A DNA stretch of 64,000 bases, from IMG/VR virus record IMGVR_UViG_3300029448_000015, positions 8,477-72,476 of that record; one strand, 5' to 3'. Below, piece by piece: positions 3,897 to 62,395 of this stretch. How positions within the stretch are numbered: the stretch's first letter is position 1; every line of letters starts with the position of its first letter. Origin of the DNA: a virus. Both the position numbers and the translations under genes were made by a program. Under the pieces are notes generated by a model that did not search any database, was not told where the DNA came from, and worked only from the letters and a program-made list of their open reading frames with translations.

Positions 3897-4767
3897 TGGC
3901 TAACACCTTAAAATTTTGTTCTTGTACTTTAGGTTCTTTAACTACTTTCGTTAAAAACACTGGGCCTCTAGCATAGTTAAAGACTCTTAAATTAGGGTAA
4001 CAATGATGTTTAAACTCACAATAAGAACACCCTATTGCTAATTTTCTATTTCCTAATTTACCTTCAGGGACATCTTCATAACAAAATTCTTTTGGTTCTG
4101 ATTTACTAACTACTCTTTTAATATGTTCAATCTGTTCTGCAATGTCTCCCTGAAGATTCTCATACATAGGATCTTTTTTATCTTTCAAGTCATGTTTTAA
4201 ATAAGTAATGTGTCCATTCTGTTTATCCATCGCTAACCAACCAAATTCAGTTTCATTCTCTGAATAGGCATAAGCTTTTATTTGTCCTATGTAACCAAAA
4301 GGATCGTCTTCAGCTACTTTTCTATCTTTAAATTTTTTAAAACCAAATACTGAAGCTGATTTAACGTCAGTTAAGACACCATCTATCTTACAGTCCATAG
4401 AACCCTGAACACCTCTAACTTCACAACGCTTTTGTTCATCAGTTACTTTATGTCCAGACATTCTAGTTAAAAACAAAAGCATTTCTTCTATGAGATGTCC
4501 GTACATAAATTTAAGTAAGGTGTAAGGCTGTAATTCTTCTGAAGGAGTTTCGTGGTATTTATTCCAAATGTATTTATCAGGTCTGCCAATTAAAGACATA
4601 CGGAGTTTTCTTTTATCTTTATTACGATCAACTAAAAATTGATTTCGCATTAACTCTTTAACTGATTCACCAAACAGTTCTATATTTTTTTCTATGTCTA
4701 TTTCATCAGAAGTTTCTTTTGTAGAAAGAAGACTGTATATGTCTTCTACTAATGTGTCTGTTCCCAT
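3886..4767 (-). CDS. PD-(D/E)XK (Cas4-like) exonuclease, set A
   Basis: GSMDCKIDG..DVKSAS, QIKAY, C-terminal CSYCEFKHHC; homologous to 40703-41551. Confidence 0.8.
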   Translation of the reverse strand: MGTDTLVEDIYSLLSTKETSDEIDIEKNIELFGESVKELMRNQFLVDRNKDKRKLRMSLIGRPDKYIWNKYHETPSEELQPYTLLKFMYGHLIEEMLLFLTRMSGHKVTDEQKRCEVRGVQGSMDCKIDGVLTDVKSASVFGFKKFKDRKVAEDDPFGYIGQIKAYAYSENETEFGWLAMDKQNGHITYLKHDLKDKKDPMYENLQGDIAEQIEHIKRVVSKSEPKEFCYEDVPEGKLGNRKLAIGCSYCEFKHHCYPNLRVFNYARGPVFLTKVVKEPKVQEQNFKVLASEF

Positions 4768-6473
4768 GAGTCCCCCACTTTATATTCTCCGTCCAATGGA
4801 CATTTTAAATTAAAACGATTACCTGCTGCTCTAATACAGCTAACTGCAAGCTTACCAAATTCTTCTGCTTTTTCTTCACTAACTTCAGATTGAATTTCAT
4901 CGTGTATATTACCAACAAATTTAAAATCTATTCCCCAAAGCTTTGCATATTCATCCAACAGTACCAAAGCTTTTTTCATTACTAATGCACCTGCTGATTG
5001 TAGTAATGTATTTAATGCTGAGTGTTCTGAGCGTACAAAAAGCTGTCTCCCGTCTAACCCTTTTAGTGTTCCCTTTGATCTGACCTTTTGTACAACTCTG
5101 TCTCTAAGCTCTTTAAGTGACGGGACACGATACAAAAATTGTTCTCTAAGAAATCTTCCATCCCCTTTGCTTCCTCCAACCACTGAACCAAGTCTTTCAT
5201 CTCCTGCTCCGTACAAGAAGGCATAGATAAAAGTTTTTGCTGTATCTCTTGATTTAAGTCCTGCAAGCTTTTGATTAAGGGAGTGTATATCTCCGTTAAT
5301 AATTTCATTAGTGTACCCTTCATTATTCATATAGTGGGCTAACATTCTCAGTTCTAAACCAGAGGCATCAACTCCGACTACTTTGTACCCTTCTTTAGCA
5401 ATCCAACAAGAACGACATTCTTTCCCGTAAGGTGAATAGACTGCGGGGACTTGAGCCATATTTGGTTTAGAATGAGTAAATCTGCCAGTAACTGCACCAT
5501 TAGTATTTACATACCCATGAACTCGATTGTCTTTATCTGCTACATCTAACCAACTTTGTACCTGCGCTTTTCTCTTTTGAATGGTAATGTATTCAGCAAT
5601 CAGTTTAGCTTCTGGTATATCAACATTAGCTAACGTAGATTCATCTACAATAGGGTGATTATTATCTGTAAATTTATCAGGTTCCCATCCTGCTTTTTGT
5701 AAACAAACTGCTATCTGTTGCCTAGAAGATAAATTAAAGGGGCGATATTCTATCCTGCAAAAGTCCCCAGAAACAGTCTGCCAATCGTCACCTAAGAACT
5801 TTAAACCTACCTTACTAAACTCATTAGTATTCTTTTTAATCTTTGGAGTAATGACTTTGATAAAAGTAAACATAGGTTTAAATGTTTTATGCACCTCATC
5901 TTCTATTGCGTATAGCTTCTCCTTAAATTCTGCTACTAAGGAAGTCGCTAAAGAGTGATCCAACAACCACCCATTGTTAATTTGTTCTTTAATTATGGAC
6001 TGTACTTTGTGTTCTAGCTCGATGGAATCAGGATTAAATTCCCTTAACTCTAATTCTAATTTTTTTAGAACTTGCTCTGTAACTGCGACATCTTGCTCAC
6101 AATATTTAATCATCTCACAAGATAATTTTTCCCATTCATTATGCGAACCTTTAGGAAAGTTTAGTCTTTCTCCCCAAGCACGTAAGCTATGCCCTCCTTC
6201 TCTGGATGGGTTTGCTAGTCGAGACAATACAAGACTGTCTAGTAATTGATAGGATGCCAGATCTACATTCCAAAGTTTCTGAAGAACAGGGAAATCAAAG
6301 GCAATGCCATTATGAGCAACAATAGTATCAACTTCGACAGTCGCTAAAGCAGCTTTAAATTCTGCTTCAGAATAAACTGTAGGAAATAGATTGGATGAAC
6401 AACACCATATTCTTGTAGGTGTCAGCCCATCAGTTTCTATGTCAAGAATTAATGTGTTTAGTAATAAGTTCAT
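4749..6473 (-). CDS. Family A DNA polymerase with 3'-5' exonuclease (T7 gp5-like), set A
   Basis: DIETDG, HNGIAFD, TGR, DASGLELRMLAHY, AKTFIYAFLYG, HDEIQ. Confidence 0.95.
   Translation of the reverse strand: MNLLLNTLILDIETDGLTPTRIWCCSSNLFPTVYSEAEFKAALATVEVDTIVAHNGIAFDFPVLQKLWNVDLASYQLLDSLVLSRLANPSREGGHSLRAWGERLNFPKGSHNEWEKLSCEMIKYCEQDVAVTEQVLKKLELELREFNPDSIELEHKVQSIIKEQINNGWLLDHSLATSLVAEFKEKLYAIEDEVHKTFKPMFTFIKVITPKIKKNTNEFSKVGLKFLGDDWQTVSGDFCRIEYRPFNLSSRQQIAVCLQKAGWEPDKFTDNNHPIVDESTLANVDIPEAKLIAEYITIQKRKAQVQSWLDVADKDNRVHGYVNTNGAVTGRFTHSKPNMAQVPAVYSPYGKECRSCWIAKEGYKVVGVDASGLELRMLAHYMNNEGYTNEIINGDIHSLNQKLAGLKSRDTAKTFIYAFLYGAGDERLGSVVGGSKGDGRFLREQFLYRVPSLKELRDRVVQKVRSKGTLKGLDGRQLFVRSEHSALNTLLQSAGALVMKKALVLLDEYAKLWGIDFKFVGNIHDEIQSEVSEEKAEEFGKLAVSCIRAAGNRFNLKCPLDGEYKVGDSWEQTH
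5063..5308 (-). CDS. Candidate nested +1-frame ORF (81 aa) inside polymerase A
   Basis: GAAGGG 7 nt before ATG; counterpart at the same position in polymerase B (42153-42404). Confidence 0.45.
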   Translation of the reverse strand: MKLLTEIYTPLIKSLQDLNQEIQQKLLSMPSCTEQEMKDLVQWLEEAKGMEDFLENNFCIVSRHLKSLETELYKRSDQREH

Positions 6474-19772: not shown

Positions 19773-20726
19773 ATGGCTACTTCAACTTATCCTGCTACTG
19801 GCGGGTTCGTCGGTAATACAGATGCTGCTACTTTTATCCCTGAAATTTGGAGTGATGAAGTTGTAGCTGCATATCAAGCTAATCTTGTTCTTGCAAATCT
19901 TGTTAAAAAGATTTCAATGCAGGGCAAGAAAGGTGACACTCTTCATATACCAAAACCTGTTCGTGGTTCAGCTAATGCTAAAGCTGAGAACACAGCAGTT
20001 ACAGTACAAAATGCTACTGAAGGTGAAGTACAAGTTTCAGTAAATAAGCACTTTGAATACTCTCGTATTATTGAAGACATTACTGAAGCTCAAGCTTTGT
20101 CTTCCCTCCGTCAATTCTACACTGGTGATGCTGGCTATGCTTTGGCAAAACAAGTAGACACTGATATTTTTGCTTTAGGCAAAGACTTAGGTGACAGCGA
20201 TGGAGCAGACTACGTACACTCCGCTTCTTTTTACATTGACGCTTCCAGTGGTTTGTCTGCTTATGCAGTAGATACTGTAGCGGCTGCTGATGTATTCACA
20301 GATGCAGGGTTTCGTGCTTTGATTCAAAAGATGGATGATGCTGATGTCCCTATGGACAACAGAGCGTTTGTCGTTCCTCCCTCATTACGTAATGCTATCA
20401 TGGGCATTGATCGTTACGTATCTTCCGACTTTGTAGATAACAGAGGTGTTGATAGCGGTAAAATCGGTAATCTTTATGGTATCGATATTTACGTATCTAC
20501 TAATGTACCGATTATCGAAACTGCGTCTGCTAACAGTGCTGGCGGTGACGTTAAAGGTGCAATGTTAATCCACAAAGATACTTTTGTTCTTGCAGAGCAA
20601 CAGGGCATACGCTCTCAAACTCAGTACAAGCAAGAGTGGCTTGGAACTTTGTATACTGCGGATATGTTGTATGGCGTTAAAGTCTTACGAACAGACGCAG
20701 GTTTTGTTTTGGCTGTTAACGGCTAA
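19773..20726 (+). CDS. Major capsid protein, set A
   Basis: FIPEIWS..., GDTLHIP, DMLYGVKVLR; AGGAG SD; position after scaffold. Confidence 0.9.
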   Translation: MATSTYPATGGFVGNTDAATFIPEIWSDEVVAAYQANLVLANLVKKISMQGKKGDTLHIPKPVRGSANAKAENTAVTVQNATEGEVQVSVNKHFEYSRIIEDITEAQALSSLRQFYTGDAGYALAKQVDTDIFALGKDLGDSDGADYVHSASFYIDASSGLSAYAVDTVAAADVFTDAGFRALIQKMDDADVPMDNRAFVVPPSLRNAIMGIDRYVSSDFVDNRGVDSGKIGNLYGIDIYVSTNVPIIETASANSAGGDVKGAMLIHKDTFVLAEQQGIRSQTQYKQEWLGTLYTADMLYGVKVLRTDAGFVLAVNG

Positions 20727-41564: not shown

Positions 41565-41897
41565 TTATTTCTTGTGATGTTTTATAAAATGAAATCCTCC
41601 TTTTGCAGAGGGTCTTAATGCAACAACACCTAATTCTTTTTGTATCTCTGAGCGTTTCTTGGGCTTATAATTAGTTTTAACATCTATAAATTTAATTTCT
41701 CCTGTATCTGAAATAGCAATTAAATCTATAGGGCCAGTACATTCACTGTTTTTAAATACTTTAAAATTATTTTCTATTAACCATATAACAGCTTTATACT
41801 CAGTAATATCTCCTATAGAGCAAGTAGATAGTTTACTTGAAGGTTCAGTAATCTTAGTGAGTTTCACTCCAGTTTTTCCCAACCTTATACTCCCCAT
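41565..41897 (-). CDS. Small PD-(D/E)XK endonuclease-like protein
   Basis: GDITEYKAV...GPIDLIAI...IDVKT. Confidence 0.65.
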   Translation of the reverse strand: MGSIRLGKTGVKLTKITEPSSKLSTCSIGDITEYKAVIWLIENNFKVFKNSECTGPIDLIAISDTGEIKFIDVKTNYKPKKRSEIQKELGVVALRPSAKGGFHFIKHHKK

Positions 41898-43596
41898 CTA
41901 AAGGACATCTAAGCTTTAAAAGCTCACCTGCTTGTATAATACATTCTACTCCTAACTTACCTACAGTATCAGCCATATCTTCTTTTACTTCTATTTGCCA
42001 TTCATCATGAACATTAGCTACAAAATGAGCATCTATATTATGTAACTTTTCATTTAAAAGAATTAAAGCTTTCTTCATTACAATAGAACCTGCTCCCTGT
42101 AGTAAAGTATTCAAAGCTGAATGTTCACTTCTAATTATTAACTTGCGTCCATCTAATGCTTTAATGAATCCTTTCCGTGCTTCTCTGCTAACTCTTGTTT
42201 TAAGATCATTGAATGATGGGAGATTATTAATAAATGATTTTCTAAGGTGTGCACCAGTACGTTTAGTTCCTCCGAGAATCTCCCCAAGTCTTGAATCTCC
42301 TGCTCCGTAGAGTAATGCATAGATGAAAGTCTTTGCCTGATTTCTTGATTCAAGCCCTGCAAGTCTTTGATTAGTGGAGTGTATGTCTCCATTAACGATT
42401 TCATTTACATACTCCTCATCATTCATGTAGTGAGCTAACATTCTTAATTCTAATCCACTAGCGTCTACACCAACTAATTTATAATTAGGTTTAACAATCC
42501 AACAAGATCTACATTCTTTACCATACTTACTATACACACTAGGAGTTTGTGCTAGGTTAGGATTTCTATGGGTCATCCTACCAGTAATAGTTCCATTATG
42601 ATTTACAAACCCTCTAACTCTATTATCATCTTCTACATCAGATAACCAAGAATCTACTTGGGCTATTCTTTTTTGGAGCATTAAAAACTCAGCTAATATT
42701 TTAGCTTCTTTAATATTTTTAATAGATGCTAATATTTTTTCATCTACTTTAGCTTGTCCGGTAGGCGTAAATTCTTTTGGTTTCCATCCTAAATCTTGTA
42801 GACGTTCACCAATTTGTTTTCGTGAACCGGGATTAAATTCTGTTTCTATTACTCTCGTAATAAAAGTTTGTTGTTCAATTAAATTAAATTCTTTATCTGT
42901 TAATCGTACATTAGTACCATAATTAGTCTTACCTGTTTTTAATAACTTTTTAAGTTTATTATGGCGTGGGAATATTTTTAATACTTCTTTAGCAGGTAAA
43001 AATACTTTTCTTATTTGTCTTTGAATCTCACTCATTCTTTCATTTAAAGTAGCAACTAACTTCATAGCTTCTTCTATGTTAAAAAGAAAACCATAGTTTC
43101 TTTGTTCATTCATAATCTTAGCTACTGCGTGCTCTATCTCAACACTTTGTCGAGAGAACCCTAGAGATTCTTGCTTTAATCTTTCATAGACTTTGTAATT
43201 CAATAAGACATCTTGTTCGCAATACTTCAGCATATCAGGAGTAAACTTACTGTATTCATGAAAATCTATTTTGTGACTCTTTAATATATACCCCCATCTT
43301 TCTAACCCATGTCCCCCTTCTCTTACTGGATTAAAAAGACGGGATAAAACTAATGTATCTACTATTATTTTATTTGATAAATCTATAGAGGTAAGATTTT
43401 TTATTACAGGTATATCATATCCTATAATGTTATGACCAATTAAAGTACCTGCCTCCATTAAAGCAGAAAGCCCTTGTTCTAATTCAGAAGGGCCATAAGA
43501 TTTTTGTTCTTGAGTAGAGGTGTCTAAAATAGAAAGACACCAAAGTTTAGTAGCTTCTATGCCATCTGTTTCTATATCAAATACTAAAGATTTCAT
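41854..43596 (-). CDS. Family A DNA polymerase, set B
   Basis: FDIETDG, HNIIGYD, TGR, DASGLELRMLAHY, AKTFIYALLYG, HDEWQ. Confidence 0.95.
   Translation of the reverse strand: MKSLVFDIETDGIEATKLWCLSILDTSTQEQKSYGPSELEQGLSALMEAGTLIGHNIIGYDIPVIKNLTSIDLSNKIIVDTLVLSRLFNPVREGGHGLERWGYILKSHKIDFHEYSKFTPDMLKYCEQDVLLNYKVYERLKQESLGFSRQSVEIEHAVAKIMNEQRNYGFLFNIEEAMKLVATLNERMSEIQRQIRKVFLPAKEVLKIFPRHNKLKKLLKTGKTNYGTNVRLTDKEFNLIEQQTFITRVIETEFNPGSRKQIGERLQDLGWKPKEFTPTGQAKVDEKILASIKNIKEAKILAEFLMLQKRIAQVDSWLSDVEDDNRVRGFVNHNGTITGRMTHRNPNLAQTPSVYSKYGKECRSCWIVKPNYKLVGVDASGLELRMLAHYMNDEEYVNEIVNGDIHSTNQRLAGLESRNQAKTFIYALLYGAGDSRLGEILGGTKRTGAHLRKSFINNLPSFNDLKTRVSREARKGFIKALDGRKLIIRSEHSALNTLLQGAGSIVMKKALILLNEKLHNIDAHFVANVHDEWQIEVKEDMADTVGKLGVECIIQAGELLKLRCPLDGEYKVGKNWSETH
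42153..42404 (-). CDS. Candidate nested +1-frame ORF (83 aa) inside polymerase B
   Basis: GAGGAG 7 nt before ATG; counterpart in polymerase A. Confidence 0.5.
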   Translation of the reverse strand: MKSLMETYTPLIKDLQGLNQEIRQRLSSMHYSTEQEIQDLGRFSEELNVLVHTLENHLLIISHHSMILKQELAEKHGKDSLKH

Positions 43597-45266
43597 AATT
43601 CAAACTCATCATTATCATCATTATCATCTAAGAAAACTTCAAGTAATCTCCCTGTAGTTTTGTCATATCTTAGATGTGCAGCCATACCAACATCTCCAGT
43701 GTATCTAGACTTTAATATTCTTAAATGTGTAGTTAAAGCTTCAACTGGATCATCAGCTTGCTGATTTCTTTCTAAAGCTATAACACAATCTGATATCTGT
43801 GCTATACCTCCAGAGCCTCTTAGATGACTAAGCCCTACAGTAGCTCCATTCTCATGTCCTCTATTACCTTCTAGACGTTTTAAATGAGAGACTAGTAAAA
43901 CACCTGCTCCAGTTTCTTCTACTATCTTACGGAGATCAGTCATCATTCTATCTATTAATGCACGTTCATTAGTTTGTTCAGCACTGGCAGATACAATCAT
44001 TTGTAAGTGATCTAAAATAATCCATTTACAATCACAACCTACAATCATATATTTTATTTTGGCTAAGATGTCATCAAAGTCACTAGCTCCAAAATGTGCA
44101 TGAACCCACATTCTATTTTTATTATTACCACCTAATACTTTTTGAGCTAACTTTTCATAATTCTCCTGACCATATTCATCTCTAATATGTTCTATATCTA
44201 ATTTTTTATTAGCTTCTATAGATAGAATACCATCAGCAGTTCTTGTCCAATCTTCTTCTAGAGCTACAATACCAAGATTGTCTTCAGTTCTAGTAATAAG
44301 CCAGTGTTCTATTTCTCTAATAATACTTGTCTTACCTAGCCCTGTACCTCCAGTAAATGTAACTAACTCTCCTTGTCTAAGACCAAATAATTTTTCATTT
44401 AAACCCTGCCAAGGGTAAGGAATAGAATCTTTCTTTTCACGTTTAAATAACTTATCAAAGTTATCTGATATGTTTAATACTCCAGAAGGAGTGTAGATAC
44501 TTGAAGCCCACCAAGAACTTACATATAAATTATGTAACCCTTGGCGTAGCATATCATTAGCATCTTTATACTCTTCAGGCATTTGAAGTATCTTTGCTTT
44601 GCCGGGAGTAATTAACTTAGCTACTGCTCTAGCAGCTTTTCTACCTTCCTTATCATTATCAAAGGAAATAATAATAGTTTGAAACTTTTCAATAAATTCT
44701 AAGTTAGCTTTGAAATCTCTTTCGGCCCCTGCAGCACCATTCTTAATTGATACTACTGGATACTGACTACCCATTAATTCATAAGCAGCCATTGCATCAC
44801 ATTCACCTTCAACTACTGTTAGAAATCTACCTCCTTCTTGGCATAGCTGTTGACCAAAGAACCCTGTACTTCTACTATCACCTTCCCAAGCAAAGTTTTT
44901 AGGATCAGTGCCTATAGTCTTTCTAACTTTATAACCTGAAATTTCATTTGCGGTATAGTAAGGATAGTAATGTTTAACTACTTCACCATCTTCTTTAATG
45001 GCTTTAACTCCATACTTCTTAGCAGTTTGTAAGCTAATAGATCTATCAGTTAGTTCTATAAACTCACCTTCAACAACATTAACTTTATTATTTTTATATT
45101 GTTTAAAGTCTGCTACAGAGTTATCTCCATTCATTGATTCCTCATAATTTTTAAATCTTGTATTACAAGAAAAACAAAATGCAGAACCATCATCATTAAT
45201 TCCACAAGCATCACTACTTGCACAATCAGGACTAGGACAGGGTTGATGTCTTTTTATAAAAGCCAT
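43593..45266 (-). CDS. T7 gp4-like primase-helicase, set B
   Basis: CPSPDC..CFSC, EGECD, FDND, GGTGLGKT, DHL, LRGS, KSRYTG. Confidence 0.95.
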   Translation of the reverse strand: MAFIKRHQPCPSPDCASSDACGINDDGSAFCFSCNTRFKNYEESMNGDNSVADFKQYKNNKVNVVEGEFIELTDRSISLQTAKKYGVKAIKEDGEVVKHYYPYYTANEISGYKVRKTIGTDPKNFAWEGDSRSTGFFGQQLCQEGGRFLTVVEGECDAMAAYELMGSQYPVVSIKNGAAGAERDFKANLEFIEKFQTIIISFDNDKEGRKAARAVAKLITPGKAKILQMPEEYKDANDMLRQGLHNLYVSSWWASSIYTPSGVLNISDNFDKLFKREKKDSIPYPWQGLNEKLFGLRQGELVTFTGGTGLGKTSIIREIEHWLITRTEDNLGIVALEEDWTRTADGILSIEANKKLDIEHIRDEYGQENYEKLAQKVLGGNNKNRMWVHAHFGASDFDDILAKIKYMIVGCDCKWIILDHLQMIVSASAEQTNERALIDRMMTDLRKIVEETGAGVLLVSHLKRLEGNRGHENGATVGLSHLRGSGGIAQISDCVIALERNQQADDPVEALTTHLRILKSRYTGDVGMAAHLRYDKTTGRLLEVFLDDNDDNDEFEL

Positions 45267-60439: not shown

Positions 60440-60697
60440 GGCTACCTTGTACATACAAGCCCCAAATTCTTTAGACGTTTAGAATTGGCTACCTTGCAAG
60501 AAAAACAAGCCCCTTAGAAAAGGAGTAATGATGTCCGAAACAGAAATTTTAGAAGAAGAACAAGCTAATCCATATAATATGAAGAAAGCTTGGCATCAGC
60601 CTGACGGCAAACGTATGCCACAAGCAAATGAATTATATTATGAAGAAGAAGACGCTCCTGTTCAAAAGGCTACCCGTTCTCGAAAGAAAACGGCCCC
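60440..60697 (+). promoter_or_regulatory. Three GGCTAC-[hairpin]-CCCC elements at the scaffold gene
   Basis: Two upstream of the SD and one inside the ORF; stems differ but stay paired. Confidence 0.6.
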
Positions 60698-61382
60698 TAC
60701 TTCTGATGAGACTAATTATAAAAAAAGATACGATGATTTAAAAAAGCATTATGATAATAAACTTTCTGAATTTAAAGAGAGAGAACAGCAGTTAATATCT
60801 GAAGTTAAATCTCAAGAGCCTGAGTATCAAGCTCCTAAGTCTGTAGAAGATTTAGAAAAATTTAGAAATGATTATCCTGATTTGTATGAAACAGTTGAAA
60901 CTGTTGCTCATCAAAGAACTGAAGAACAACTTTCTAAAGTGCATGAAAAACTTTCTGTTTTGGAAGAAAGAGAAAATGCTATTGCACAAAAGGAAGCTGA
61001 ATCAGCTTTATCAGAACGTCATCCAGATTTTGATGATATTCGAGGTTCAGATGATTTTCATTCTTGGGCAAAAGAACAACCTGAACAAATACAAGGTTGG
61101 GTTTATGAGAACCCAAATAATGTTTCTTTAGCTATCAAAGCTCTTGATCTTTATAAATTAGAAACTGGAAAAGGACAAAGTTCTCAAAAATCTAGTTCAA
61201 ATAATAAACAACGTAGAGTTTCTGCTGCTGATATGGTTTCTACTAAAACCACAAATGTAGAACCTCGACAAGATAAAATTTGGACTGAAACTGAAATTGC
61301 GAAAATGTCCTTAGATCAATTTGATAAATATGAAGAAGATATTCGTCAAGCCATTGATGAAGGAAGGATTCGTAAAATATAA
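60528..61382 (+). CDS. Capsid scaffolding protein, set B
   Basis: YKKRYDDLKKHY coiled coil, HPDF, ends IRQAIDEGRI; precedes capsid gene. Confidence 0.8.
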   Translation: MMSETEILEEEQANPYNMKKAWHQPDGKRMPQANELYYEEEDAPVQKATRSRKKTAPTSDETNYKKRYDDLKKHYDNKLSEFKEREQQLISEVKSQEPEYQAPKSVEDLEKFRNDYPDLYETVETVAHQRTEEQLSKVHEKLSVLEERENAIAQKEAESALSERHPDFDDIRGSDDFHSWAKEQPEQIQGWVYENPNNVSLAIKALDLYKLETGKGQSSQKSSSNNKQRRVSAADMVSTKTTNVEPRQDKIWTETEIAKMSLDQFDKYEEDIRQAIDEGRIRKI

Positions 61383-61405: not shown

Positions 61406-62395
61406 ATGGCTTTTAACCAATCAGATCAGTTTTTTGAACAGAGTACAGATACCAATGGTAACTTTGGTAATTCTGTATCCGGTCAAAATAACTCTTTTTT
61501 CTTACCGAAGGTATATTCCAAGCAAGTTCTAAACTTTTTTCGTAAAGCGTCTGTAGCAGAAGCTATAACAAATACGGATTATGCAGGTGAAATTTCTGCT
61601 TTTGGAGACACAGTAAGAATAATTAAAGAACCCGAAATTACTGTTTATCAGTATGAGCGTGGTGCAGATGTAACGCAGACTAAGTTGACTGACCAAGAAG
61701 TTAGTTTGACTGTAGATATTGCTAATGCATTTAAGTTTATTGTTGATGACATAGAAACAAATATGTCTCACGTAAACTTTCGTGACGTAGCAACTTCATC
61801 TGCTGCTTATGCTCTCCGTGATGCTTTTGACGCAGGTGTTATTGCGACAATGATAGCAGGTGTTTCTGCATCGAGTCCTAATCATATATTGGGATCTGAT
61901 AATGCTACCGATCTTGCCGAAGGTACTTTTGATGGTACTGGTAATCTTGATATCGGTTTTGGAACGAATGAGCATGATCCTATTGATGTCCTTAGTCGTA
62001 TGGCTCGTCTTTTGGATGAGCAAAATGTTCCTGAAGAAGGTCGATGGTTCTTGGCAAGTCCTGAGTTCTATGAAGTTTTGGCTTCAAGTTCTTCTAAGTT
62101 GCTTTCCGTTGACTACAATGCAGGACAAGGATCTATACGAAATGGTCTAGTATCTTCTGGACTGTTGCGTGGATTTAATATGTATAAAACTAACAACATT
62201 GCAGCTACTACTAATGCAGCAGGACAATGTTTGGCAGGTCATATTTCATCTACAGCTACAGCACAAACGATTACTAGCACTGAAGTAATTCGTGATCCTG
62301 ACAGCTTTGGTGACATTGTACGTGGACTTCATGTTTATGGTACGAAGGTTCTCCGTGGTGAAGCATTGGTTTCTGCCTTTTATGGCATTGACTAA
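61406..62395 (+). CDS. Major capsid protein, set B
   Basis: FLPKVYSK, GDTVRII, DIVRGLHVYGTKVLR. Confidence 0.9.
   Translation: MAFNQSDQFFEQSTDTNGNFGNSVSGQNNSFFLPKVYSKQVLNFFRKASVAEAITNTDYAGEISAFGDTVRIIKEPEITVYQYERGADVTQTKLTDQEVSLTVDIANAFKFIVDDIETNMSHVNFRDVATSSAAYALRDAFDAGVIATMIAGVSASSPNHILGSDNATDLAEGTFDGTGNLDIGFGTNEHDPIDVLSRMARLLDEQNVPEEGRWFLASPEFYEVLASSSSKLLSVDYNAGQGSIRNGLVSSGLLRGFNMYKTNNIAATTNAAGQCLAGHISSTATAQTITSTEVIRDPDSFGDIVRGLHVYGTKVLRGEALVSAFYGID

What the first reader, a model, noticed from the sequence alone, without database searches (positions are those of the whole stretch)
42153..42417. Nested +1-frame ORF with a strong SD inside DNA polymerase B
Seen: GAGGAG-N7-ATG starts an 83-codon ORF (MKSLMETYTPLIKDLQGLNQEIRQRL...). 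The SD uses GAG GAG where this genome mostly uses GAA, and across the overlap the polymerase uses CTT/CTC/ATC/GTT rather than the usual TTA/ATA/GTA that create +1-frame stops. The same ORF occurs at the same position in the diverged polymerase A. Inference: a selected, probably unannotated overlapping gene.
Basis: partly seen in the sequence, partly recalled or inferred. Interest (0 to 1): 0.75.

Follow-up and report, generated by a model that had tools for sequence, protein, structure and literature searches.

The report
Hidden gene inside phage DNA polymerase
A small, previously unannotated gene is written in a second reading frame inside the DNA polymerase gene of a widespread group of marine phages, and comparison of many relatives shows that evolution has preserved it.

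Summary
On the minus strand, GAGGAG-N7-ATG (42417-42402) opens an 83-codon +1-frame ORF (42153-42404). It lies inside a T7-type family-A DNA polymerase gene (41854-43596), over the fingers/O-helix region. The window's second polymerase, 50% identical, carries the same ORF (5063-5323).

It is not chance:
- Codon shuffles of the polymerase reach 83 open codons in 1-2 of 5000 trials.
- The frame is open at the same aligned place in 141 of 160 homologues, against 1.6 expected.
- Synonymous codon identity rises only across the overlap (1.32, against 0.89-0.97 elsewhere) and only in lineages that keep the ORF (1.01 in those that lost it).
- The ATG and Shine-Dalgarno are kept by synonymous codon choice (AAT 26/26, GAG 17/18).
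- The +1 protein is far more conserved than polymerase constraint predicts (0.415 against 0.270).

The cultured pelagiphages HTVC103P and HTVC115P carry it, unannotated. AlphaFold2 predicts a confident helical hairpin (pLDDT 93.7). A dimer model passes its controls (0.71 against 0.01).

Best reading: a real overprinted gene for a small dimeric helical protein, translated from the polymerase mRNA. Its function is unknown and translation is not shown. Support is strong in the two marine subclades and weak in a sister group. The scan had noted this same stretch before, from another window of this genome.

The parts
42153..42404 (-). Nested +1-frame ORF in polymerase copy B: 83 codons plus TAG stop; predicted 9.7-kDa acidic helical-hairpin protein
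   Evidence: pI 6.1; AF2 pLDDT 93.7, helices 4-31 and 34-82
42412..42417 (-). Shine-Dalgarno GAGGAG, 7 nt before the nested ATG; formed by polymerase codons GAG GAG
   Evidence: An SD-like AGGAG/AAGGAG/GAGG lies 7-9 nt upstream of the homologous ATG in most representatives of the two marine subclades. Codon choice at that column: GAG 17 of 18 Glu, AAG 5 of 5 Lys
42402..42404 (-). Nested start codon ATG, made from polymerase codons AAT-GAA (Asn-Glu); a +1-frame TAA lies immediately upstream
   Evidence: The Asn codon is AAT in 26 of 26 representatives, against 0.59 gene-wide
41854..43596 (-). Host gene: family-A (T7 gp5-like) DNA polymerase, copy B, 580 aa. The overlap covers about codons 398-481 (fingers, O-helix/motif B)
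5063..5323 (-). Homologous nested +1-frame ORF in polymerase copy A: 86 codons from the first ATG (5323-5321), 81 codons from the ATG at 5308-5306 that aligns with copy B's start
5316..5320 (-). Weaker SD-like AAGGG, 7 nt before the ATG at 5308-5306 in copy A
4749..6473 (-). Host gene: family-A DNA polymerase, copy A, 574 aa, 50% identical to copy B

Best explanation
This is a genuine overprinted protein-coding gene. It is embedded in the +1 frame of the fingers-coding part of a T7-type family-A DNA polymerase gene. It is old: it dates to the base of a polymerase clade that includes the HTVC103P-type pelagiphages. It is kept by purifying selection in the two marine subclades to which both window copies belong.

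Mechanism, inferred: ribosomes start independently on the polymerase mRNA at an internal Shine-Dalgarno plus ATG, both built from polymerase codons. They make an acidic protein of about 83 aa alongside the replication genes. The protein is predicted to be an antiparallel helical hairpin that pairs into a four-helix-bundle homodimer.

What it does is not known. My committed guess is a protein-binding accessory of the replication or early-takeover programme, acting on a host factor or on the replisome, and not an enzyme.

Shown here: open-frame conservation, overlap-specific synonymous constraint, start-signal conservation and protein-level conservation. Inferred only: translation, the fold, dimerisation and function.
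For: 1. Shuffles. The longest +1 run reached 83 or more in 1/5000 and 2/5000 trials for copy B, and 87 or more in 42/5000 and 17/5000 for copy A.

2. Open-frame conservation. 160 usable sequences were examined: 158 of 160 IMG/VR loci, plus the window's two. L075 and L099 were dropped for lacking the region. The region is stop-free in +1 in 141. The expected number is 1.6, given each polymerase's amino-acid sequence and its own codon usage (median P 0.0056, maximum 0.09). In most of them it is the longest +1 run of the gene.

3. Synonymous constraint. Among 39 ORF-bearing representatives (under 80% aa identity), synonymous codon identity observed/expected is 1.32 in the overlap and 0.94 in the rest. 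The 47 other 84-codon windows range 0.89-0.97. Among the 8 representatives without the ORF it is 1.01. Leaving out L, I, V, R and S, the residues whose codons can create or avoid +1 stops, it is still 1.20 against a maximum of 0.99 elsewhere. It is 1.43 within the copy-B subclade, 1.38 within the copy-A subclade and 1.41 between them.

4. Start signals kept by synonymous choice. In 26 representatives, the Asn codon that makes the ATG is AAT in 26/26 (gene-wide 0.59). The Glu codon that makes the SD is GAG in 17/18 (gene-wide 0.40) and Lys is AAG in 5/5. An SD-like motif lies 7-9 nt upstream.

5. Protein-level conservation. Pairwise identity of the +1 translation is 0.415, against 0.270 in codon resamplings conditioned on no stops (z 41). 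Control windows exceed their simulations by only 0.013-0.039. In the 31 representatives of the two marine subclades, both halves exceed expectation: 0.62 against 0.36, and 0.41 against 0.24. In the second half the polymerase itself is only 48% identical.

6. Phylogeny. All ORF-bearing polymerases fall in one clade (SH-aLRT 100) and occur in all four of its subclades. Absences are scattered.

7. Cultured phages. HTVC115P and HTVC103P carry it (107 and 99 codons from the ATG), with AAGGAG or AAGGA 7 nt upstream. P(open) is 8e-6 and 3e-6.

8. Structure. AF2 on 74 nested proteins gives pLDDT 93.7 and pTM 0.72, a two-helix hairpin.

9. Dimer. The two-copy model scores 0.71, with the best of 3 controls at 0.01. 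The runs agree in at least 98% of contacts and the partner pLDDT is at least 83. In calibration, that mark was reached by 20 of 30 proteins solved as pairs of one chain and 1 of 23 solved as single chains. The tool says these counts hold only roughly here, because my own alignment was used. The tool's verdict is that the model supports binding but does not show it.
Against: - No direct evidence of translation exists. No Ribo-seq or proteomics was available here.
- In the sister groups (loci L095-L164) the frame is open but the rest of the case is weak. Synonymous identity is not raised (0.95 overall, and 0.67-0.89 in the overlap within group 3). Group 2 has no SD. Its 108-aa basic version folds poorly (pLDDT 58, a different predicted topology).
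- 19 of 160 homologues fail the open-frame criterion, so the gene is dispensable in some lineages. Two of these, L066 and L094, still keep 79-80-codon ORFs with a shifted start.
- Copy A's SD is weak (AAGGG).
- The sequences are related by descent, so the counts are not independent events. The control windows also show a small residual excess (z 6-11).
- High AF2 confidence for a helix-prone sequence is weak evidence, and coevolution in the alignment is confounded by the polymerase frame.
- Fold, family and atlas searches gave no functional lead.
Confidence: 0.85

Rival explanations
1. Programmed +1 ribosomal frameshifting. Ribosomes translating the polymerase slip into the +1 frame. The product is a truncated polymerase (exonuclease, thumb and motif A) with an 80-residue alternative C-terminus, not a free small protein.
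For: The +1 frame is open and selected. An SD-like element upstream of a shift site is known to stimulate frameshifting in prfB and dnaX (recalled knowledge). Gene callers have produced polymerase-to-nested-frame fusions in metagenome assemblies (P0027, P0041).
Against: A +1-frame stop lies directly before the ATG in copy B. In most relatives a stop lies six codons upstream, forced by the polymerase's Met followed by Asn or Lys (ATG A.. reads TGA). Any shift would therefore have to happen inside the ORF. The ATG is kept by synonymous choice in 26/26 representatives, with an SD at initiation spacing of 7-9 nt. Frameshifting predicts neither. There is no zero-frame stop or other pause codon of the prfB type. 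The fusion calls switch frame at different points and look like assembly indels.
Confidence: 0.06
2. A non-coding constraint. A DNA or RNA element inside the polymerase gene, such as a structure, a binding site or codon-level translational tuning of the conserved fingers region, explains the synonymous conservation, and the open frame is a by-product.
For: Synonymous constraint alone does not prove coding. The first half of the overlap is the most conserved part of the polymerase (83% aa identity).
Against: Such an element would not remove stops from one frame only (141/160 against 1.6 expected), nor keep an ATG and an SD. Lineages without the ORF show no constraint in the same conserved region (1.01). 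The other conserved motif windows show none either (0.97 and 1.02). The RNA around the start folds no better than shuffles (z -0.59). Promoter-like sites are no more frequent than in shuffles (10 against 15.2).
Confidence: 0.03
3. The ORF is translated, but the act of translation is what matters and not the peptide. For example, internal initiation could modulate ribosome traffic or polymerase mRNA stability.
For: It accounts for the SD, the ATG and the open frame. In groups 2 and 3 the frame stays open without clear sequence constraint.
Against: In the two marine subclades the +1 amino-acid sequence is conserved well beyond stop-avoidance (0.62 against 0.36 and 0.41 against 0.24). The stop position is conserved. 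The sequences give a confident, amphipathic, self-pairing fold.
Confidence: 0.04
4. A chance open frame inherited from a common ancestor, with no function.
For: A window of 31 long genes has four +1 runs of 80 codons or more. The homologues share ancestry.
Against: Shuffle odds are 1-2 in 5000. The frame has been kept across lineages whose polymerases are only 46-60% identical, where synonymous sites are saturated. All the other lines of evidence above also argue against it.
Confidence: 0.02

Closest known systems
Embedded out-of-frame phage genes such as lambda Rz1 inside Rz (+1 frame) and phiX174 E inside D or B inside A (recalled from general knowledge; not retrieved here)
   Same: A complete small ORF lies in an alternative sense frame wholly inside a larger phage gene, has its own start signals, and is expressed from the host gene's mRNA.
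   Different: The host gene is an essential replicative DNA polymerase, and the overlap lies over its catalytic fingers/O-helix. The product has no lipobox, signal peptide or transmembrane segment and is not in a lysis cassette. It has no sequence relationship to these proteins.
POLGARF, the conserved ORF overlapping the mammalian POLG (family-A DNA polymerase gamma) coding sequence. Seen only as search listing and abstract start of bioRxiv 10.1101/2020.03.06.980391
   Same: A conserved second protein is encoded out of frame within a family-A DNA polymerase mRNA.
   Different: POLGARF is eukaryotic, starts at a CUG in the 5' leader, is 260 codons long and lies at the 5' part of the mRNA. This one is bacterial-type, with internal SD-ATG initiation and about 83 codons over the fingers region. 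They arose independently.
Overprinted (de novo) accessory proteins of viruses, as reviewed in PMC8227390 (search listing and abstract start only)
   Same: The gene is restricted to one clade, has no homologues outside the overlap, and was born inside an older conserved gene.
   Different: It occurs in a dsDNA tailed phage, not a small RNA or ssDNA virus. It is predicted to be well ordered, whereas many overprinted proteins are described as disordered (recalled).
Helical-hairpin homodimers forming four-helix bundles, such as Rop or histidine-kinase DHp domains
   Same: The predicted architecture is two long antiparallel helices with a symmetric dimer model. The atlas's third hit is a HisKA cluster at score 0.88, which is a lead only.
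   Different: No sequence or specific structural match was found. Foldseek against PDB gave 0 matches. VIA-align gave a best Z of 6.9 among generic coiled coils, below the tool's stated noise level for helical models.

Membership tests
Functional overlapping (overprinted) protein-coding gene | The alternative frame is kept open across diverged relatives far more often than codon usage predicts | tested here: met
   141 of 160 open against 1.6 expected. Shuffles gave 1-2 of 5000.
Functional overlapping (overprinted) protein-coding gene | Synonymous change in the host gene is reduced, and only across the overlap | tested here: met
   Observed/expected codon identity is 1.32 in the overlap, against 0.89-0.97 in 47 other windows. 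It is 1.01 in lineages without the ORF. It is met in the copy-A and copy-B subclades (1.38-1.43) but not in groups 2 and 3 (0.95).
Functional overlapping (overprinted) protein-coding gene | Conserved start codon and ribosome-binding site | tested here: met
   AAT 26/26, GAG 17/18 and AAG 5/5, with an SD 7-9 nt upstream. 118 loci have an ATG at the aligned column. The SD is absent in group 2.
Functional overlapping (overprinted) protein-coding gene | The alternative-frame protein is conserved beyond what the host frame imposes | tested here: met
   0.415 against 0.270 simulated. Both halves of the protein exceed expectation.
Functional overlapping (overprinted) protein-coding gene | Direct evidence of translation (ribosome footprints, peptides) | not testable with these tools
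   No Ribo-seq or proteome data were available. RNA reads could not separate the nested ORF from the polymerase mRNA, so the sequencing-run tools were not used.
Programmed +1 ribosomal frameshift site | A shift-prone site with a zero-frame pause (stop or rare codon), and a +1 frame open from that site | tested here: not met
   There is no zero-frame stop. A +1 stop lies directly before the ATG or six codons before it. The conserved ATG is not explained by frameshifting. No exhaustive search for slippery motifs was made.
Rz/Rz1-type embedded spanin | The nested ORF encodes a lipoprotein (signal peptide with lipobox) and lies inside a lysis-cassette gene | tested here: not met
   The host gene is a DNA polymerase. 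The nested protein starts MKSLMETYTPLIK, has no Cys, and is hydrophilic (GRAVY -0.56).
Any curated protein family (Pfam, PHROGs) | A profile match above the family threshold | tested here: not met
   The best Pfam hit is DUF7491 at 19.3 bits, against a cut-off of 30. No PHROG matched copy B, and copy A scored only E 0.06-0.1.

The most novel reading that the evidence does not exclude
A replicative polymerase gene acts as a cradle for new genes. A protein born de novo inside the O-helix-coding segment of a family-A DNA polymerase has co-evolved with the polymerase in the same nucleotides across a globally abundant marine phage clade, and it forms a dimeric four-helix bundle with a role of its own. 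A sister subclade of the same polymerase independently carries a second nested ORF, in the +2 frame over the exonuclease domain. That ORF is open in 61 of 162 sequences against 0.16 expected, with raised synonymous constraint there. Overprinting in this gene would then be recurrent.
Probability: 0.45. Interest if true: 0.78.

Novelty: new member of a known kind. Interest (0 to 1): 0.66.

Why it matters
Long out-of-frame genes wholly embedded in essential, highly conserved enzyme genes are rarely documented in tailed dsDNA phages, and gene callers forbid them by design. This one sits over the catalytic fingers of the replicative polymerase, so two proteins have shared about 250 nt through deep divergence.

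It occurs in an abundant marine phage group. It is also present in two cultured pelagiphages, so it can be tested directly.

It adds an unannotated protein family to pelagiphage genomes. It also cautions against treating the synonymous sites of this polymerase region as neutral, which bears on its use as a marker gene. It is a clean natural case for studying dual-coding constraint and de novo gene birth.

I found no paper describing it in four full-text searches.

Tried and rejected
- tblastn of the 83-aa protein against 50,697 phage records found no match at E 1e-3. HTVC115P and HTVC103P nevertheless carry the ORF, so that search was simply too insensitive.
- Pfam and PHROGs gave nothing above threshold.
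- Foldseek against PDB gave 0 matches. Against BFVD the best E was 6.9. VIA-align wide gave a best Z of 6.9 among generic coiled coils, within the tool's stated noise for helical models.
- The ESM Atlas gave a best score of 0.89, below its 0.9 guide, with no structure search possible.
- A profile search of 1.84 billion representatives found 128 hits at E 1e-3 or better (71 at 1e-10 or better). Most are 44-181 aa and begin at or near the profile's start. Several longer ones are chimeric frame-switch calls (P0027, P0041, P0037, P0073). One, P0116, is an unrelated repeat protein. I could not inspect their genomic context, so whether a free-standing homologue exists remains untested.
- An internal promoter: promoter-like sites are no more frequent than in shuffles (10 against 15.2) and none lies just upstream on the minus strand.
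- RNA structure at the start: z -0.59.
- Shared fold between the marine 83-aa form and the 108-aa group-2 form: not supported (pLDDT 58, different topology).
- The 'hypothetical protein' listed under the polymerase match in GenBank records is the next gene downstream, not the nested ORF.
- The sequencing-run and read-laying tools were not used. RNA coverage cannot distinguish the nested ORF from the polymerase mRNA.
Full report
**What is there.** The finding lies on the minus strand. GAGGAG is at 42417-42412. After a 7-nt spacer comes ATG at 42404-42402, and an 83-codon ORF runs to TAG at 42155-42153. It sits at nucleotide offset 1192, frame +1, of the 580-codon gene 41854-43596(-). That gene is a family-A DNA polymerase (Pfam DNA_pol_A, E 9.6e-53) and aligns end to end with T7 gp5 (E 1.6e-81). 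The overlap covers polymerase codons of about 398-481. This is the stretch from just after motif A through the O-helix (NQ..AGL.SR..AKTFIYA.LYGAG). From memory, the conserved Lys there corresponds to T7 K522, once the 6-residue deletion in that crystal construct is allowed for. The next gene upstream, 43593-45266(-), is a Toprim/DnaB primase-helicase.

**The record.** The window is part of a 72,476-bp IMG/VR virus record. It holds two diverged, complete T7-like gene sets. Exonuclease is 40% identical between them, polymerase 50%, primase-helicase 40%, portal 24% and capsid 22%. It carries an 86-codon +1 ORF at 5063-5323(-) at the aligned position. The nearest cultured relatives of the polymerase are the HTVC103P-type pelagiphages, at 49% identity.

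**Is it more than chance?** The +1 frame of polymerase B has 74 stops. Its longest open run is these 83 codons and the next longest is 25. Keeping the protein and shuffling synonymous codons gave a run of 83 or more in 1 of 5000 within-gene permutations and 2 of 5000 resamplings from window-wide usage. For polymerase A (87 or more) the counts were 42 and 17 of 5000. GAA:GAG is 907:207 in the window. In the overlap, 0 of 11 at-risk L/I/V codons make a +1 stop, against 65 of 87 elsewhere in the gene. As a baseline, the window's 31 long ORFs contain four +1 runs of 80 codons or more: these two, plus runs of 91 and 97 codons in two late genes. Length alone would therefore not be convincing.

**Comparative test.** I fetched 160 polymerase loci from IMG/VR, 80 with each window polymerase as query and spanning 43-89% identity. 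I aligned them with the two window genes. Two loci, L075 and L099, lacked the region. Of the remaining 160 sequences, 141 have no +1 stop across the aligned region. For each sequence I computed the exact probability of that outcome, given its amino-acid sequence and its own gene's codon usage. The median is 0.0056, the maximum is 0.09, and the expected total is 1.6. The open stretch usually begins and ends at the same alignment columns, and in most sequences it is the longest +1 run in the gene. The upstream boundary is forced by the polymerase's Met followed by Asn or Lys, because ATG A.. reads TGA in +1. The 19 failures are L066, L091-L094, L102, L118, L121, L132, L134, L140, L142, L145, L149, L150, L153, L158, L160 and L161. 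Of these, L066 and L094 still have 79-80-codon ORFs with a shifted start.

**Synonymous constraint.** I took 39 ORF-bearing representatives with under 80% aa identity to each other. For pairs that share an amino acid, I measured how often they also share the codon, relative to the gene-wide rate for that residue. The ratio is 1.18-1.42 in the 20-codon windows that begin between codons 391 and 461. It is 0.84-1.04 everywhere else. Over the whole overlap it is 1.32, against 0.94 for the rest, and the 47 other 84-codon windows range 0.89-0.97. In the 8 representatives without the ORF the same region gives 1.01. This control also answers the objection that a highly conserved protein segment might simply have stronger codon bias. 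Windows over two other well-conserved stretches (codons 371-390 and 521-540; from memory near motifs A and C) show no rise either, at 0.97 and 1.02. Because I selected on openness, I repeated the test without L, I, V, R and S, the residues whose codons can create or avoid +1 stops. The overlap is still 1.20, against a maximum of 0.99 elsewhere.

**Start signals.** In 26 representatives that share the Asn-Glu pair, the Asn codon that supplies the AT of the ATG is AAT in 26 of 26 (gene-wide AAT share 0.59). The Glu three codons upstream of the start is GAG in 17 of 18 (gene-wide 0.40). Where that residue is Lys it is AAG in 5 of 5. The result is AGGAG, AAGGAG, GAGGA or GAGG 7-9 nt before the ATG. 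118 loci have an ATG at that column. These features fit independent initiation. They do not fit frameshifting, which would also have to occur downstream of a +1 stop that abuts the ATG in copy B.

**Protein-level conservation.** The mean pairwise identity of the +1 translation among the 39 representatives is 0.415. Resampling synonymous codons while conditioning on a stop-free frame gives 0.270 (sd 0.004). Five control windows exceed their simulations by only 0.013-0.039, which measures residual shared ancestry. In the 31 representatives of the two marine subclades, the first half of the nested protein is 0.62 identical against 0.36 expected. The second half is 0.41 against 0.24, and there the polymerase itself is only 48% identical.

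**Distribution.** On a polymerase tree of 55 rows (quick maximum-likelihood search), every ORF-bearing sequence falls in one clade (SH-aLRT 100; 41 rows with the ORF, 9 without). That clade is separate from Autographiviridae-like polymerases that lack the ORF (CRP-804, LUZ100, S2B, HTVC031P). The ORF occurs in all four subclades. Parsimony needs 8 changes, of which 4 are forced by well-supported branches, consistent with one gain and several losses. The cultured pelagiphages HTVC115P and HTVC103P carry it, at 107 and 99 codons from the ATG. They have AAGGAG or AAGGA 7 nt upstream, and P(open) is 8e-6 and 3e-6. Their GenBank records annotate no nested CDS.

**Limits of the claim.** The case is strong for the subclades of the two window polymerases. 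Constraint is 1.43 and 1.38 within them and 1.41 between them. It is weak for the sister groups (loci L095-L164):
- The frame is open, and longer (108-131 codons).
- Synonymous identity is not specifically raised: 0.95 overall, and 0.67-0.89 within group 3.
- Group 2 has no SD.
- Its basic 108-aa product folds poorly (pLDDT 58, a beta-rich guess).

There the ORF may have diverged in function or be decaying. Three close relatives in group 3 have already acquired 4-5 stops.

**The product.** The copy-B protein is 9.7 kDa with pI 6.1. Copy A's is 9.7 kDa with pI 4.9. Both are hydrophilic and have no hydrophobic N-terminus typical of a signal peptide. AlphaFold2 on an alignment of 74 nested proteins gives a mean pLDDT of 93.7 and pTM of 0.72, with helices at 4-31 and 34-82, an antiparallel hairpin. 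A two-copy complex model scored 0.71 in all three runs (0.70-0.71), with the best of three controls at 0.01. The runs agree in at least 98% of contacts and the partner pLDDT is at least 83. In the tool's calibration that mark was reached by 20 of 30 proteins solved as pairs of one chain and 1 of 23 solved as single chains. The tool says those counts hold only roughly here, because my own alignment was used. Its verdict is that the model supports binding but does not show it. The symmetric interface runs along both helices, consistent with a four-helix bundle.

No family, fold or atlas search gave a functional lead. Gene callers have already called the ORF in metagenome assemblies: 9 clusters at 90% identity and 128 representatives at E 1e-3 or better. 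Some of these are chimeric calls that switch between the two frames.

**How it most likely works.** Shown: the frame, its start signals and its amino-acid sequence are under selection. Inferred: the polymerase mRNA is dual-coding. I found no internal promoter beyond chance and no special RNA structure at the start. Ribosomes would initiate at the internal SD-ATG and make the small protein together with the replication genes. Its helical-hairpin dimer architecture suggests a binding protein and not an enzyme. I guess at a host-takeover or replisome-accessory role, with low confidence in the specific target.

**Comparison and novelty.** This works like the classic embedded phage genes (Rz1 in Rz, phiX174 E in D; recalled). 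It parallels POLGARF in mammalian POLG (abstract only). It is unrelated to all of them, and it fails the spanin criteria. Four full-text searches found no description of it. Supplements were closed and subscription journals are not covered. I class it as a new member of a known kind. I found no note of it on other DNA.

Noticed in passing
related loci L095-L164, polymerase codons equivalent to about 26-109 of window gene 41854-43596: A second candidate nested gene. A +2-frame ORF of 72-96 codons over the 3'-5' exonuclease domain is open in 61 of 162 homologues, against 0.16 expected. It occurs only in the sister subclade, including the L102-type sequences that lack the +1 ORF. Synonymous codon identity is raised there (1.2-1.57). 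It is absent from both window polymerases, whose longest +2 runs are 28 and 50 codons.
   Followed up: partly
related loci (for example L095, L098, L139, L041), polymerase codons equivalent to about 155-300: +1 open stretches of 78-119 codons over the variable thumb region recur in about 36-44% of homologues. They were not tested against a null, and many of these sequences are close relatives.
   Followed up: no
L168 (uncultured phage Deep1-GF2-KM23-C739, Chosvirus), polymerase gene: This polymerase lies outside the ORF-bearing clade. It has a 137-codon +1 open stretch spanning motif A to the O-helix at only 33% GC. This may be an independent case.
   Followed up: no
window 60528-61382 (+) and 61406-62395 (+): Two late genes each contain a long +1 open run, of 91 and 97 codons. 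One, 61406-62395, is 22% identical to copy A's 19773-20726, which I take to be the capsid gene. The other is a neighbouring gene that I take to be the scaffold gene. These are the only other +1 runs of 80 codons or more among the window's 31 long ORFs. They are untested.
   Followed up: no
whole window (record G000:C1, 72,476 bp): The record holds two diverged, complete T7-like phage gene sets head to tail, each with a minus-strand replication arm and a plus-strand structural arm. Identities between the sets are 22-50%. It is either two phage genomes joined in assembly or a tandem arrangement. CheckV's '100% complete' should be read with that in mind.
   Followed up: partly
proteins P0027, P0041, P0037, P0073 (metagenome gene calls): Public gene calls fuse polymerase-frame and nested-frame segments at varying points. 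These are most likely indels in assemblies. They show how the nested frame surfaces in databases when the polymerase frame is broken.
   Followed up: partly
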